Shown piece after piece: positions 37,701 through 43,700 of a stretch of DNA of 64,000 nt. How positions within the stretch are numbered: the stretch's first letter is position 1; every line of letters begins with the position of its first letter. A program made the position numbers. This DNA comes from Escherichia coli O127:H6 str. E2348/69. GTDB taxonomy: Bacteria > Pseudomonadota > Gammaproteobacteria > Enterobacterales > Enterobacteriaceae. The DNA lies in assembly GCF_000026545.1 (NCBI RefSeq), contig NC_011601.1. One strand, written 5' to 3'.

Positions 37701-40700
37701 TTGTAAAATACCGACGGATAGAACGACCCGGTGGATAATGGGCGTCATAAAAAAAACGTCAGACCCGCCGGAGATAAATATATAGAGGTCATGATGAGTA
37801 CTGAAATCAAAACTCAGGTCGTGGTACTTGGGGCAGGCCCCGCAGGTTACTCCGCTGCCTTCCGTTGCGCTGATTTAGGTCTGGAAACCGTAATCGTAGA
37901 ACGTTACAACACCCTTGGCGGTGTTTGCCTGAACGTCGGCTGTATCCCTTCTAAAGCACTGCTGCACGTAGCAAAAGTTATCGAAGAAGCCAAAGCGCTG
38001 GCTGAACACGGTATCGTCTTCGGCGAACCGAAAACCGATATCGACAAGATTCGTACCTGGAAAGAGAAAGTGATCAATCAGCTGACCGGTGGTCTGGCTG
38101 GTATGGCGAAAGGCCGCAAAGTCAAAGTGGTCAACGGTCTGGGTAAATTCACCGGGGCTAACACCCTGGAAGTTGAAGGTGAGAACGGTAAAACCGTGAT
38201 CAACTTCGACAACGCGATCATTGCAGCGGGTTCTCGCCCGATTCAACTGCCGTTTATTCCGCATGAAGATCCGCGTATCTGGGACTCCACTGACGCGCTG
38301 GAACTGAAAGAAGTACCAGAACGCCTGCTGGTAATGGGTGGCGGTATCATCGGTCTGGAAATGGGCACCGTATACCACGCGCTGGGTTCACAGATTGACG
38401 TGGTTGAAATGTTCGACCAGGTCATCCCGGCAGCTGATAAAGACATCGTTAAAGTCTTTACCAAGCGTATCAGCAAGAAATTCAACCTGATGCTGGAAAC
38501 CAAAGTTACCGCCGTTGAAGCGAAAGAAGACGGCATTTATGTGACGATGGAAGGCAAAAAAGCACCCGCTGAACCGCAGCGTTACGACGCCGTGCTGGTA
38601 GCGATTGGTCGTGTGCCGAACGGTAAAAACCTCGACGCAGGCAAAGCTGGTGTGGAAGTTGACGACCGTGGTTTCATCCGCGTTGACAAACAGCTGCGTA
38701 CCAACGTACCGCACATCTTTGCTATCGGCGATATCGTCGGTCAGCCAATGCTGGCACACAAAGGTGTTCACGAAGGTCACGTTGCCGCTGAAGTTATCGC
38801 CGGTAAAAAACATTACTTCGATCCCAAAGTTATCCCGTCCATCGCCTATACCGAACCAGAAGTTGCATGGGTAGGTCTGACTGAGAAAGAAGCGAAAGAG
38901 AAAGGCATCAGCTACGAAACCGCCACCTTCCCGTGGGCTGCTTCTGGTCGTGCTATCGCTTCCGACTGCGCAGACGGTATGACCAAGCTGATTTTCGACA
39001 AAGAATCTCACCGTGTGATCGGTGGTGCGATTGTCGGCACTAACGGCGGCGAGTTGCTGGGTGAAATCGGCCTGGCAATCGAAATGGGTTGTGACGCTGA
39101 AGACATTGCACTGACCATCCATGCGCACCCGACTCTGCACGAGTCTGTGGGCCTGGCGGCAGAAGTGTTCGAAGGTAGCATTACCGACCTGCCGAACCCG
39201 AAAGCGAAGAAGAAGTAATTTGTCGTTTGCCGGAACATCCGGCAATTAAAAAAGCGGCTAACCACGCCGCTTTTTTTACGTCTGCAATTTACCTTTCCAG
39301 TCTTCTTGCTCCACGTTCAGAGAGACGTTCGCGTACTGTTGACCGCTGCTCGTTATTCAATCGGGCAGTACGGTTACTGTCGTTTAGACGTTGCGGGCGG
39401 CTCTCCTGAACTTTCTCCCGAAAAAACGGACGTTGTTCAGGTGATGCCGATTGAACACGCTGGCGGGCGTTATCACGTTGCTCTTGGTTCAGTGGGCGCT
39501 GCTGTACTTTTTCCTTAAACACCTGGCGCTGCTCTGGTGATGCGGACTGAATGCGCTGGCGCGCTGCCTCTCTTCGCTGCTGGTTCTGCGGGTTAGTCTG
39601 CATTTTCTCGCGAACCGCCTGGCGCTGCTCAGGCGGCGCGGACTGAATACGCTGACGTGCCGCTTCTCTTCGCTGCTGGTTCTGCGGGTTAGTCTGCATT
39701 TTCTCGCGGGCCGCCTGGCGCTGCTCAGGAGAAGCCGACTGATAACGCTGACGAGCGGCGTCCTTTTGTTGCTGGGTCAGTGGCTGGCGACGGCTGAAGT
39801 CGCGGAAGTCGTCATAGCTCCCATTGTGTTCAGCTTCATTAAACCGCTGTGCCGCTGCCTGACGTTGGGTATCTCGTGTAATGACGGGGGCGGTGTGTGT
39901 TCGTTGCTGAAACTGACTTGCTGCCGCATGACGCTGGCTGTCGCGTGTTGGAGCAGGTAACTGCGTGGCGCTCATTCCGCCGTTGACATCGGTTTGATGA
40001 AACCGCTTTGCCATATCCTGATCATGATAGGGTACACCATTACGGTAGTTTGGATTGTGCTGCCATGCCATATTCTTATCAGTAAGATGCTCACCGGTGA
40101 TACGGTTGAAATTGTTGACGTCGATATTGATGTTGTCGCCGTTGTGTTGCCAGTCATTACCGTCACGATGACCTCCATCGTGGTGATGATAATCATCATC
40201 GTCATGATGATGATGGTCATGATCGTCGTCGTCCCAGTCGATGCTGCTGAATAGTGCGTATGTGGTAGCAACGCCCATGCTATAGCCGAATCCGCGCACA
40301 AAGCTGTCAACAAACGGTTCTCCGGCTGGCGGCGGCAGATAAACTGGCGGATAAGCGGTATTGGCCCAACTGCCGTAAACCACGTTTGGGTTGTAGTTCG
40401 GAATATAAACCACATCCGGATTGGCTGGCTCAATGGTTATTACGGTCGGTGCAGGTTCTGCGACGACGGGGCTGGACGTAGAAACGGTATTTGATTGTGT
40501 GGCAGGGGCGTTGGCGGGCTGATTTACCGGTACGACTTTTTTCGTTGTCGTGATGATCTTTTGTTCAGTTGATGACTTCAGCGAGCCGGTTTGTTGCGCC
40601 AGTTGCCGCAATCGCTGTACCGAGTCCATCACGTCCTGCGGCTGCGCCAGAAAAGCATCGCCCAGGTTTTGCACCCATTGCGGGTTTTCGCCCATCAACG

Positions 40701-43700
40701 CCATCAACTGTGGAAAGGCCACCAGTGATTTGACGCTGGCGTCCCAGGACTGGCCAGATACCGCCTGAATAGCAGCATCGCCTTGTTTAAGTGGATTATC
40801 GTGTGACCATTGCACTGCTTGCGCAACGTTTGCCGGATAGGTTGATGCCATTAACACTTGTGAAAGCAGAGAGTCGGGGTACAGCGCGACGGGCGCGACC
40901 CATTGATCGATTTGTGCAGTGCTGAATGTAGATTTGACGACGGCAGGCGTTACGGGAGGCGCGGAAACCGTTGCAGGAAGCGTAACTGCGGAGATGTCAG
41001 GCGCAGTCTGTTGTGTCGATTGCGCTTCCACAGGCGCTTCCACTGTGCGGCTTTTTATATATAGCCCGGCAGAGGCGGCACAAAGCCCTGCACTGCAAAT
41101 TAGCGCCAGCACATGGGGTTTAAACGGCAAAGTCATTTTCATAATTCGGATCTCAAGGAAATCGCAATGGTCGGCGAACTGCCACCCGCAGGTGCTGTGA
41201 ATCCGAGTATAAAGAGGCCGTAGTTTAAATTTTGACTAATCTTGGGATTCGTTGAGAAAGGTGATTATCACCATGCGAATTAACGAAGTTTTTACGGAGG
41301 GAAAAATTCTCTAGACTATCCTTAACGATTCAGCCACTTTTTTATGTTGCTTTTTTGTAAACAGATTAACACATCGTCAAAATCCTGCTATTCTGCCCGT
41401 TGCGGTACTGGGCATTTACCCTACAAACTGCTGTCTCACAGGAGCGTGAAGAGAATCGCCTGCCGCACTATGACAATGAGAGCGAGGAGAACCGTCGTGC
41501 TAGAAGAATACCGTAAGCACGTAGCTGAGCGTGCCGCTGAGGGGATTGCGCCCAAACCCCTGGATGCAAACCAAATGGCCGCACTTGTAGAGCTGCTGAA
41601 AAACCCGCCCGCGGGCGAAGAAGAATTCCTGTTAGATCTGTTAACCAACCGTGTTCCCCCTAGCGTCGATGAAGCCGCCTATGTCAAAGCAGGCTTCCTG
41701 GCTGCTGTCGCCAAAGGCGAAGCTAAATCCCCGCTGCTGACTCCGGAAAAAGCCATTGAACTGCTGGGCACTATGCAGGGTGGTTACAACATTCATCCGC
41801 TGATCGACGCGCTGGATGATGCCAAACTGGCACCGATCGCTGCCAAAGCACTTTCTCACACGCTGCTGATGTTCGATAACTTCTATGACGTAGAAGAGAA
41901 AGCCAAAGCAGGCAACGAATATGCGAAGCAGGTAATGCAGTCCTGGGCGGATGCCGAATGGTTCCTGAATCGCCCGGCGCTGGCTGAAAAACTGACCGTT
42001 ACCGTCTTCAAAGTCACTGGCGAAACCAACACCGATGACCTCTCTCCGGCACCAGATGCGTGGTCACGCCCGGATATCCCACTGCACGCGCTGGCGATGC
42101 TGAAAAACGCCCGTGAAGGTATTGAGCCAGATCAGCCTGGTGTTGTTGGCCCGATCAAACAGATTGAAGCTCTGCAACAGAAAGGTTTCCCGCTGGCGTA
42201 CGTCGGTGACGTTGTGGGTACGGGTTCATCGCGTAAATCCGCCACGAACTCCGTTCTGTGGTTTATGGGCGATGATATTCCACATGTGCCGAACAAACGC
42301 GGCGGTGGTTTGTGCCTCGGCGGTAAAATTGCACCCATCTTCTTTAACACGATGGAAGATGCGGGTGCACTGCCAATCGAAGTCGACGTCTCTAACCTGA
42401 ACATGGGCGACGTAATTGACGTTTACCCGTACAAAGGTGAAGTGCGTAACCACGAAACCGGCGAACTGCTGGCAACCTTCGAACTGAAAACCGACGTGCT
42501 GATTGATGAAGTGCGTGCTGGCGGCCGTATTCCGCTGATTATCGGGCGTGGCCTGACCACCAAAGCGCGTGAAGCACTTGGCCTGCCGCACAGCGATGTG
42601 TTCCGTCAGGCGAAAGATGTCGCTGAGAGCGATCGCGGCTTCTCGCTGGCGCAGAAAATGGTAGGCCGTGCCTGTGGCGTGAAAGGCATTCGTCCGGGCG
42701 CGTACTGTGAACCGAAAATGACTTCTGTAGGTTCCCAGGACACCACCGGCCCGATGACCCGTGATGAACTGAAAGACCTGGCGTGCCTGGGCTTCTCGGC
42801 TGACCTGGTGATGCAGTCTTTCTGCCACACCGCGGCGTATCCGAAGCCAGTTGACGTGAACACGCACCACACGCTGCCGGACTTCATTATGAACCGTGGC
42901 GGTGTGTCGCTGCGTCCGGGTGACGGCGTAATCCACTCCTGGCTGAACCGTATGCTGCTGCCGGATACCGTCGGTACCGGTGGTGACTCCCATACCCGTT
43001 TCCCGATCGGTATCTCTTTCCCGGCGGGTTCTGGTCTGGTGGCATTTGCAGCCGCAACAGGCGTAATGCCGCTGGATATGCCAGAATCCGTTCTGGTGCG
43101 CTTCAAAGGCAAAATGCAGCCGGGTATCACCCTGCGCGATCTGGTACACGCCATTCCGCTGTATGCAATCAAACAAGGTCTGCTGACCGTTGAGAAGAAA
43201 GGTAAGAAAAACATCTTCTCTGGCCGCATTCTGGAAATTGAAGGTCTGCCGGATCTGAAAGTTGAGCAGGCATTTGAGCTGACCGATGCGTCTGCCGAGC
43301 GTTCTGCTGCCGGTTGTACCATCAAGCTGAACAAAGAACCGATCATTGAATACCTGAACTCTAACATCGTCCTGCTGAAGTGGATGATCGCGGAAGGTTA
43401 CGGCGATCGTCGTACCCTGGAGCGTCGTATTCAGGGCATGGAAAAATGGCTGGCGAATCCTGAGCTGCTGGAAGCCGATGCAGATGCGGAATACGCGGCA
43501 GTGATCGACATCGATCTGGCGGATATCAAAGAGCCAATCATCTGTGCACCGAATGACCCAGACGACGCACGTCCGCTGTCTGCGGTACAGGGCGAGAAGA
43601 TCGACGAAGTATTTATCGGTTCTTGCATGACTAACATCGGTCACTTCCGTGCTGCTGGTAAACTGCTGGATGCGCACAAAGGTCAGTTGCCGACCCGCCT

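What the first reader, a model, noticed from the sequence alone, without database searches (positions are those of the whole stretch)
39289..41142. yacH: uncharacterised secreted protein with a His/Asp cluster and recently duplicated 32-aa repeats
The protein contains DDDDHDHHHHDDDDYHHHDGGHRDG (encoded at about 40170-40250), a plausible metal-binding patch, and about four C-terminal tandem repeats. Two DNA units are nearly identical over ~90 bp (at 39572 and 39668), suggesting ongoing copy-number change. Function is unknown; position is between lpd and acnB.
Basis: seen in the sequence. Interest (0 to 1): 0.35.

Follow-up and report, generated by a model that had tools for sequence, protein, structure and literature searches.

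The report
yacH: orphaned, length-variable envelope protein
This is the known but uncharacterised E. coli gene yacH (DUF3300 family): an exported protein with a His/Asp-rich loop and an arginine-rich repeat tail that both vary in length between strains, and Escherichia has lost the partner gene that normally follows it.

Summary
The window is E. coli E2348/69, and ORF 39289-41142 (-) is yacH, 617 aa, Pfam DUF3300 (E=1e-77), between lpd and acnB.

The His/Asp patch (aa 304-328) and four 32-aa units plus a degenerate fifth are present. The best 90-nt repeat window is 83/90 identical, against at most 45/90 in shuffles.

Strain comparison confirms length change:
- Alleles range from 581 to 662 aa, with 3, 4 or 5 units.
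- About 43% of sampled complete genomes appear to lack one unit, in at least three patterns.
- About 15% differ in His/Asp tract length.
- All sequenced length variants are in frame.

"Recently duplicated" is not supported. Orthologous units between strains are more alike than paralogous units within a strain, so the array predates the E. coli radiation.

New context:
- DUF3300 is a large family (9,505 representatives) of exported proteins with basic tails.
- 72 of 80 genome loci have a DUF2950 gene directly downstream, including other Enterobacteriaceae (acnB-yacH-DUF2950-lpd).
- E. coli and E. albertii lack DUF2950 and have lost or degraded a conserved C-terminal motif.
- The core stays under strong purifying selection (dN/dS 0.06).
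- The confident core model has no solved structural relative.

Function remains unknown. An envelope role, with a polycationic tail and a metal- or pH-sensitive His loop, is inferred.

The parts
39289..41142 (-). yacH coding sequence, 617 aa plus stop
   Evidence: ORF list. It is 100% identical to the annotated yacH of E. coli E2348/69. The Pfam DUF3300 match covers aa 75-333, E=1.3e-77, 260.7 bits.
41053..41142 (-). N-terminal export signal or membrane anchor (aa 1-30: MKMTLPFKPH + 19 hydrophobic residues containing an ASA motif, then KSR)
   Evidence: Read directly from the sequence. Most family members have a classical signal peptide ending AxA directly before the domain. Whether the E. coli segment is cleaved or stays as an anchor is not resolved.
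40921..41052 (-). Pro/Thr/Val/Ala-rich linker 1 (aa 31-74), variable between strains
   Evidence: dN/dS is 0.63-0.70 against K-12 and O157. pLDDT is below 60.
40558..40920 (-). DUF3300 N-terminal all-helical half (aa 75-195) with the duplicated motif LYPDxLLxQVLxASTYP / LVAFPQLM
   Evidence: pLDDT is 94-98. dN/dS is 0.05-0.06. It contains the invariant or nearly invariant family residues A99, W133, Q176, R179 and A182.
40438..40557 (-). Linker 2 (aa 196-235), with two deeply diverged allele classes in E. coli
   Evidence: dS is 0.93-0.95 and dN is 0.21 against K-12 and O157. Nucleotide identity is 72-76% between classes and 94% or more within a class.
40234..40437 (-). DUF3300 C-terminal beta-rich half (aa 236-303: IEPANPDVVYIPNYNPNVVYGSW...IDW)
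   Evidence: pLDDT is mostly 72-94, lower in the 280s. dN/dS is 0.06-0.08. The nearly invariant residues are Y246, V247, P248, Y250, P252, Y256, G257, W259 and W303.
40159..40233 (-). His/Asp tract (aa 304-328: 9 His and 12 Asp in 25 residues), made of GAY/CAY triplet runs
   Evidence: Coordinates. Length variants occur in E. coli. The tract is an expansion of a loop that is 4 aa at the family median and His-enriched (19.5% His against 1.7% elsewhere). It is present in all 16 Enterobacterales orthologues examined.
39946..40158 (-). Conserved block after the His tract (aa 329-399: NINIDVNNFN...WQHNPNYRNGVPY), partly outside the Pfam model
   Evidence: dN/dS is 0.04-0.06. The family consensus is INVNR...WxHxPxHRxGVxYRD. 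pLDDT is 88-95 in the core model.
39778..39945 (-). Q/R-rich segment before the repeats (aa 400-455), with two degenerate xQRxAAxxxF half-motifs. The 662-aa allele carries a 45-aa duplication spanning this segment and the first residues of R1.
   Evidence: Sequences. Helices are predicted at 400-414 and 423-436.
39385..39777 (-). Four tandem 32-aa (96-nt) units R1-R4. Each is predicted to form two helices that begin at SPEQ or NPQNQ.
   Evidence: Helices are predicted at 457-469, 472-483, 486-501, 504-515, 518-532 and 536-547. Copy number is 3-5 among strains.
39292..39384 (-). Degenerate fifth unit and basic C-terminus (…RLNDSNRTARLNNEQRSTVRERLSERGARRLER). The family motif FSGNDSRSPSWQ..RG.QSR has been deleted here.
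   Evidence: Alignment of C-termini against genera that retain DUF2950. Association of the motif with DUF2950.
39248..39276 (.). Bidirectional intrinsic terminator hairpin (A7-GCGGC-loop-GCCGC-T7) between the convergent genes yacH and lpd
   Evidence: RNA fold energy is -28.1 kcal/mol for the 71-nt stretch, z=-4.6, with 0 of 200 shuffles folding as well.

Best explanation
The feature is yacH, the E. coli member of the large DUF3300 family of Sec-exported proteobacterial proteins.

Anatomy (shown):
- An N-terminal export signal or anchor.
- A flexible linker.
- A two-part conserved core (a helical half and a beta-rich half) under strong purifying selection, with no solved structural relative.
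- A His/Asp tract inserted at a loop that is His-rich throughout the family.
- A further conserved block.
- A 218-residue Arg/Gln-rich tail with net charge +21, built from 32-aa helix-turn-helix units.

Length variation (variation shown, process inferred): both low-complexity parts change length in frame within the species. The 96-nt units probably change by unequal recombination or slippage between copies that share up to 58/60 nt. The His/Asp tract probably changes by slippage in its GAY/CAY triplet runs.

Loss of the partner (shown): in most of the family, including other Enterobacteriaceae, a secreted DUF2950 protein is encoded directly downstream. Escherichia has deleted that gene. It has also lost or degraded the conserved C-terminal motif that co-occurs with it. 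yacH is therefore an orphaned half of a two-gene module that is still kept intact.

Mechanism (inferred):
- YacH acts in the cell envelope.
- Its polycationic tail binds anionic envelope material through bulk charge, so unit number can drift.
- The His/Asp loop binds divalent metal or senses pH.
- This would fit the reported Cpx/Rob/ampicillin responsiveness and the altered protamine survival of the deletion mutant.
For: Identity and family.

Export: N-terminal signal peptides are seen across the family, and this was also noted in PMC4653623.

Selection: dN/dS is 0.04-0.08 in the core and 0.2-0.7 in the linkers. Of 5,426 complete genomes, 5,410 hold at least 80% of the gene in one place.

In-frame length variants: alleles of 581-662 aa, 3-5 units, and many His/Asp variants.

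Basic tail: the tail has net charge +21. It is basic in 95 of 114 full-length family representatives. Independent tandem repeats occur in the tails of Pseudocitrobacter, Kluyvera and Enterobacter.

His loop: the loop is 19.5% His against 1.7% elsewhere, at a fixed position after the nearly invariant W303.

DUF2950 partner:
- Present in 72/80 loci by ORF clustering and 66/80 by tblastn.
- Absent from the window and from the E. albertii gap.
- No detectable DUF2950 DNA in 5,426 E. coli genomes.
- The C-terminal motif co-occurs with DUF2950 (56 loci with both, 5 with neither, 0 with the motif alone). It is deleted or degraded in Escherichia.

Envelope-stress link from the literature:
- CpxR-dependent expression, and better survival of the deletion mutant on protamine (PMC9600279).
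- Lower expression in a rob deletion (PMC7537768).
- Promoter induced by ampicillin (PMC8865558).
- Listed among genes whose expression changed after treatment with the cathelicidin peptide B22 (PMC6737244).
Against: - No biochemical function is known for any DUF3300 or DUF2950 protein.
- Localisation, metal binding and any ligand of the tail are untested.
- Cleavage of the E. coli N-terminal segment is uncertain, because 19 hydrophobic residues would also suit a membrane anchor.
- The protamine result goes in an unexpected direction (the deletion survives better) and comes from a single study.
- The association between the motif and DUF2950 is not corrected for phylogeny and rests on about four independent losses.
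- No structural or sequence relative gives a hint of mechanism.
Confidence: 0.5

Rival explanations
1. The His/Asp tract and the repeat array are neutral, slippage-prone low-complexity sequence in a gene that is slowly decaying after losing its DUF2950 partner. On this view their length variation has no functional meaning.
For: - The partner gene and the associated C-terminal motif are lost in Escherichia.
- Many length variants exist.
- One strain has an IS1 insertion.
- A Salmonella isolate has an 8-bp frameshift in the His/Asp tract (PMC10048834).
- The deletion mutant is viable and survives protamine better than wild type.
Against: - The core has dN/dS of 0.04-0.08.
- 5,410 of 5,426 genomes hold at least 80% of the gene in one place.
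- All sequenced length variants are in frame.
- His/Asp composition is kept in all 16 Enterobacterales orthologues examined despite sequence turnover, and the loop is His-rich across the family.
- A basic tail is kept in 95 of 114 family members.
Confidence: 0.25
2. yacH encodes a surface-exposed antigen under diversifying or balancing selection. Repeat number and linker alleles vary in order to evade phage or host immunity, in the manner of a contingency locus.
For: - Linker 2 has two allele classes only 72-76% identical in DNA, with dS of 0.93-0.95.
- Whole-gene dS is 0.22, against 0.06 for lpd and 0.10 for acnB.
- Alleles are mosaic.
- One paper lists the location as 'Extracellular'.
Against: - dN/dS is below 1 in every segment.
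- There is no on/off frameshifting. The units are long (96 nt) and imperfect, so switching would be slow.
- The same length classes are shared by many genomes, which fits inheritance by lineage.
- There is no evidence of surface exposure.
Confidence: 0.1
3. The SPEQRQ repeats are LTxxQ-type motifs, and the tail is a CpxP/Spy/ZraP-like periplasmic chaperone or stress-sensor module.
For: - The motif S-P-E-Q-R-Q at helix starts resembles LTPEQ motifs (my own recollection of CpxP/Spy, not tested here).
- yacH expression responds to CpxR.
Against: - The tail alone matches no Pfam family of that type even at E up to 10. The only hits are non-significant (DUF3106, E=1.8).
- No PDB sequence or fold match to Spy or CpxP appears.
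Confidence: 0.05

Closest known systems
DUF3300 (Pfam PF11737) / DUF2950 (PF11453) secreted gene pair of Proteobacteria
   Same: - yacH matches DUF3300 at 260.7 bits.
- It shares the family's export signal, two-part core, post-core conserved block and basic tail.
- The co-localisation of DUF3300 upstream of DUF2950 was published in 2015 (PMC4653623) and is reproduced here in 72 of 80 loci.
   Different: - Escherichia lacks the DUF2950 gene and the C-terminal motif that accompanies it.
- It has a long His/Asp expansion of the normally 4-residue His loop.
- It has an Escherichia-specific array of 32-aa units.
- It has a 45-residue linker between the hydrophobic N-terminus and the domain.
His/Asp-rich loops of periplasmic metal-binding proteins such as ZnuA (from general knowledge)
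   Same: A flexible, acidic, His-dense loop in an exported protein. The composition suits Zn, Ni or Cu binding.
   Different: - No sequence or fold relation to solute-binding proteins was found.
- Metal binding is untested.
- No literature link between yacH and metals was found.
Variable-number tandem repeats in bacterial coding regions (minisatellite-like, in-frame)
   Same: - The 96-nt units have 3-5 copies among strains.
- Independent deletions lie at different unit junctions.
- All changes are in frame.
   Different: - It is not a phase-variation switch, because there are no short-unit tracts that shift the frame.
- The units are only 60-83% identical overall, so change is slow and largely specific to lineages.
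CpxP/Spy/ZraP LTxxQ periplasmic proteins
   Same: Both are Cpx-responsive, exported and helical, and have a short S/T-P-E-Q motif at helix starts.
   Different: No profile match and no fold match. Membership is not supported.

Membership tests
DUF3300 (PF11737) | Profile HMM match above the curated gathering score | tested here: met
   260.7 bits against a cut-off of 25, E=1.3e-77, aa 75-333 covering model positions 2-227 of 227.
DUF3300 (PF11737) | N-terminal export signal | tested here: inconclusive
   There is a hydrophobic N-terminus with an ASA motif, and classical signal peptides occur in most relatives. No signal-peptide predictor was available. The 19-residue hydrophobic stretch could instead be an uncleaved anchor.
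DUF3300/DUF2950 two-gene module | DUF2950 gene directly downstream on the same strand | tested here: not met
   Only 70 bp separate the yacH stop from the lpd stop. tblastn found no remnant in the window or in E. albertii. blastn found no DUF2950-like DNA in 5,426 E. coli genomes. It is present in 72 of 80 other loci.
DUF3300/DUF2950 two-gene module | C-terminal motif [FL]xG...RGxxS(R) before the basic C-terminus | tested here: not met
   The motif is present in 56 of 64 loci with DUF2950 and in 0 of 5 loci without it. In E. coli a 17-residue deletion removes it, and in E. albertii it has diverged.
DUF3300 (PF11737) | Strongly basic C-terminal tail | tested here: met
   Net charge is +21 over aa 400-617. 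95 of 114 relatives have at least +8 in their last 150 residues.
CpxP/Spy LTxxQ family | Profile match to the LTxxQ family model | tested here: not met
   The tail alone, scanned at E up to 10, gave only non-significant matches to FAZ1_C, DUF3106 and RskA_N.
Periplasmic His-rich metal-binding loops (ZnuA-like) | Measured metal binding by the loop | not testable with these tools
   Only composition could be checked: 9 His and 12 Asp in 25 residues, and family-wide His enrichment at this loop.
Phase-variable contingency locus | Short repeat tract whose length changes switch the reading frame on and off | tested here: not met
   All E. coli length variants examined are multiples of 3 nt and keep the frame. 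The units are 96 nt long.

The most novel reading that the evidence does not exclude
The DUF3300 core is a previously unseen fold that forms, with DUF2950, a widespread two-protein envelope system of unknown function. In Escherichia the orphaned YacH would have been repurposed. Its metal- or pH-switchable His/Asp loop and its polycationic repeat tail would set envelope surface charge and susceptibility to cationic antimicrobial peptides, and repeat number would tune that effect between lineages.
Probability: 0.12. Interest if true: 0.7.

Novelty: already known. Interest (0 to 1): 0.33.

Why it matters
yacH belongs to the uncharacterised part of the E. coli gene set. Its family is very large (9,505 representatives of 50%-identity clusters), is exported, and has no solved structural relative and no characterised member.

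Three results make it more tractable:
- The His-rich loop is a fixed, family-wide site. This gives a concrete hypothesis about metal or pH to test.
- The basic tail tolerates natural 3-, 4- and 5-unit alleles. These are ready-made reagents for testing the reported protamine phenotype.
- Escherichia is a natural knockout of the DUF2950 partner, with matching decay of a C-terminal motif. This points to where the two proteins may interact and allows complementation with the Citrobacter gene.

For the original finding itself the result is mostly ordinary. It is a known gene with confirmed but slow in-frame repeat variation.

Tried and rejected
- CpxP/Spy-like LTxxQ tail: no Pfam match even at E up to 10.
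- CpxR box search (GTAAA-N5-GTAAA, up to 2 mismatches): 55 matches in the window against 48.7 expected, which is uninformative.
- Promoter and terminator consensus scan: no more sites than in shuffles. It missed the obvious terminator, which was then confirmed by folding.
- PDB sequence search with the protein and with the family profile: only His-tag artefacts and one hit at E=0.19.
- The AFDB sample library was not available.
- NCBIfam: no family.
- Rfam on both strands: nothing at gathering score.
- The repeat finder with default seeds reported no direct-repeat family, although Tandem Repeats Finder and direct comparison show the array.
- Remnant of DUF2950 in the window or in the 750-bp E. 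albertii gap: none.
- Other conserved neighbours of the DUF3300 gene: none beyond DUF2950 and local enterobacterial synteny.
- Literature link between yacH and zinc: none. The hits were to the author name Yach.
- Recent duplication: rejected, because orthologous units are more similar than paralogous ones.

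
Full report
**What is there**

The 64-kb window is from E. coli E2348/69. The query gene matches that genome at 100% over 1,854 nt, where it is annotated yacH, "DUF3300 domain-containing protein". The ORF at 39289-41142 (minus strand) encodes 617 aa. lpd converges on its 3' end and acnB diverges from its 5' end.

Pfam gives one match, DUF3300 (PF11737), at aa 75-333 with E=1.3e-77. NCBIfam gives none. No RNA family is found on either strand. A strong bidirectional terminator hairpin lies at 39248-39276.

**Checking the observation**

The His/Asp string is at aa 304-328, window 40159-40233. The C-terminus holds four 32-aa (96-nt) units, R1-R4 at 39385-39777, and a degenerate fifth. 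Tandem Repeats Finder reports period 96, 2.4 copies and 87% matches, plus a 48-nt sub-period.

The best windows are 83/90 and 58/60. Codon-shuffled genes reach at most 45/90.

**Strain comparison**

Of 5,426 complete E. coli genomes, 5,416 carry the gene and 5,410 hold at least 80% of it in one place. One strain has an IS1 insertion.

Alleles in public data range from 581 to 662 aa. They carry 3, 4 or 5 units. The one-unit deletions fall at different junctions:
- the NMBU type loses an R1/R2-type unit;
- the NU14 type is an R3/R4 fusion;
- the R14 type loses the unit after R1.

There are also a 36-aa deletion, deletions of 10 and 11 aa, and a 45-aa duplication upstream of the array.

In an evenly spaced sample of 60 genomes, 33 have the window's array length and 26 show patterns consistent with one missing unit.

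The His/Asp tract also varies. Seen at the protein level are HHH, HHHHHHH, an added DH, an added DDHDHHHH, and deletions of 7 and 13 aa. In the DNA sample of 60 genomes, 9 differ in tract length: +6 bp in six, +24 bp in one and -39 bp in two. A Salmonella isolate has an 8-bp GATCATCA deletion in the equivalent tract (PMC10048834). All E. coli variants examined are in frame.

**Age of the duplication**

Orthologous units between E2348/69, K-12 and O157 share 85-94 of 96 nt. Paralogous units within a strain share 58-81 of 96 nt. E. albertii and a divergent E. coli already have the array. The four-unit array therefore predates the E. coli radiation.

Only in the second half of units 1 and 2 is paralogous identity (49/54) as high as orthologous identity (47-50/54). 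This suggests local gene conversion or constraint. "Recently duplicated" is not supported, but "copy number still changing" is.

**Selection**

Between E2348/69 and K-12 or O157, dN/dS is 0.04-0.08 for both DUF3300 halves and for the block after the His tract. It is 0.2-0.7 for the linkers and 0.12-0.22 for the repeats.

Whole-gene dS (0.22) exceeds that of lpd (0.06) and acnB (0.10). Linker 2 (aa 196-235) has dS of 0.93-0.95. It comes in two allele classes only 72-76% identical in DNA, and alleles are mosaic.

**The family**

A search of 1.84 billion representatives finds 9,505 relatives at E≤0.001. Most have classical signal peptides followed directly by the motif FxxxELDQxLAPIALYPD. Of 114 full-length representatives, 95 have a strongly basic tail and only 15 have a dense His cluster.

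The family consensus extends beyond the Pfam model, through INVNR...WxHxPxHRxGVxYRD into an Arg-rich tail.

The loop after the nearly invariant W303 has a median length of 4 residues. It is 19.5% His, against 1.7% elsewhere; typical sequences are HHHH, HHGH and HRHH. The long His/Asp tract of Enterobacterales is an expansion of this loop. It is present in all 16 Enterobacterales orthologues examined, with 3 to 15 His in the richest 30-residue window.

The 32-aa SPEQRQ units are specific to Escherichia. Pseudocitrobacter, Kluyvera and an Enterobacter have their own tandem repeats in the tail.

**The partner gene**

A DUF2950 (PF11453) gene follows the DUF3300 gene on the same strand in metagenome loci. 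Among the 80 reference-genome loci it is present in 72 by ORF clustering and 66 by tblastn. No other neighbour is conserved. This co-localisation, the signal peptides and the lack of any characterised member were already reported in 2015 (PMC4653623).

In Citrobacter, Pseudescherichia, Pseudocitrobacter, Enterobacter, Kluyvera and Phytobacter the order is acnB, yacH, DUF2950, lpd.

E. coli has only 70 bp between yacH and lpd. Neither the window nor the E. albertii gap holds a remnant. No E. coli genome has detectable DUF2950 DNA.

A C-terminal motif (N[AV][FL]SGNDSRSPSWQxQxxRGxQSR in enterobacteria) occurs in 56 of 64 loci with DUF2950 and in none of 5 without it (Fisher p≈1e-4, not corrected for phylogeny). 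It has diverged in E. albertii and is removed by a 17-residue deletion in E. coli.

I infer that the motif works with DUF2950, and that Escherichia YacH is an orphan retained for a partner-independent role.

**Structure**

The full-length AlphaFold2 model has pLDDT 72.6. The tail forms helix-turn-helix units at moderate confidence. The core alone (aa 70-389) gives pLDDT 86.8 and pTM 0.85.

No search finds a relative:
- Foldseek on the core model: best E 0.84, TM below 0.13.
- Sequence and profile searches of the PDB: nothing.
- The DUF2950 partner against the PDB: nothing.

**Literature on yacH**

- mRNA levels depend on CpxR. Expression falls with protamine, and the deletion mutant survives protamine better than wild type (PMC9600279).
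- Expression is lower in a rob deletion (PMC7537768).
- The promoter is induced by ampicillin (PMC8865558).
- The gene is listed in a table of genes whose expression changed after treatment with the cathelicidin peptide B22 (PMC6737244).
- A sigma-28 holoenzyme binding site was mapped in the yacH-acnB spacer (PMC5493296).
- No function is reported.

**Interpretation**

Shown: gene identity, family, in-frame length polymorphism, purifying selection on the core, a family-wide basic tail and His loop, and loss of DUF2950 and the C-terminal motif in Escherichia.

Inferred: envelope location; a tail that acts through bulk positive charge on anionic envelope components, so that unit number can drift; a His/Asp loop that binds metal or senses pH; and unequal recombination and triplet slippage as the mutational processes.

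Rivals are neutral decay of an orphan gene, antigenic diversification, and a CpxP/Spy-like tail. They are weighed in the Rival explanations section.

**Verdict**

This is a known, annotated, uncharacterised gene. The extra value lies in the orphaned-partner finding and in the fixed His-loop site.

Noticed in passing
window 40438-40557 (yacH aa 196-235): Linker 2 exists as two deeply diverged allele classes in E. coli. DNA identity is 72-76% between classes and 94% or more within a class. dS is 0.93-0.95, far above the flanking genes (lpd 0.06, acnB 0.10). Some alleles are mosaics of the two classes.
   Followed up: partly
L007 (E. coli CUWW06), locus 748-1445: An IS1B element is inserted in yacH and splits it into two annotated pseudogene fragments. 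This was the only disrupted allele seen in the sampled rows.
   Followed up: no
L014 (E. albertii) 6798-7543: About 750 bp lie between yacH and lpd, where other genera have DUF2950. tblastn finds no DUF2950 remnant. The minus strand seems to encode a small protein with a signal-like N-terminus (reverse complement of ...GAAACGCTTTCAT). It was not identified.
   Followed up: no
L015-L026, about 6460-7450 in each locus: The enterobacterial DUF2950 proteins are about 264 aa with a clear signal peptide (MKKI..LSLPL.SYAQQ). In Pseudocitrobacter faecalis (L019) the called ORF is only 152 aa, so it may be truncated.
   Followed up: no
window 41344-44094 and 37731-39218: The mechanical ORF list over-extends both neighbours. 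acnB really starts 51 codons downstream of the listed ATG, at a GTG (VLEEYRKH...). lpd starts at MSTEIK, not at the listed GTG.
   Followed up: yes
E. coli plasmid records: Three to five matches to yacH sequence lie on records labelled as plasmids. These may be misassigned replicons or chromosomal segments carried on plasmids.
   Followed up: no
P0028/P0030/P0031 (662-aa E. coli alleles): A 45-aa tandem duplication (APVITRDTQRQAAAQRFNEAEHYGSYDDFHDFSRRQPLTQQQKDA) lies upstream of the 32-aa array. It shows that the whole Q/R region, not only the 96-nt units, is prone to duplication.
   Followed up: partly
window 39972-40433 (-) and 39994-40254 (+): Alternative-frame and antisense ORFs of 86-153 aa overlap the His/Asp tract. 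They consist of Ile/Met/Val/Thr runs produced by the GAY/CAY repeats read in other frames. An antisense 'ORF family' also appears in 75 of the 80 loci. These are shadow ORFs, not genes.
   Followed up: yes
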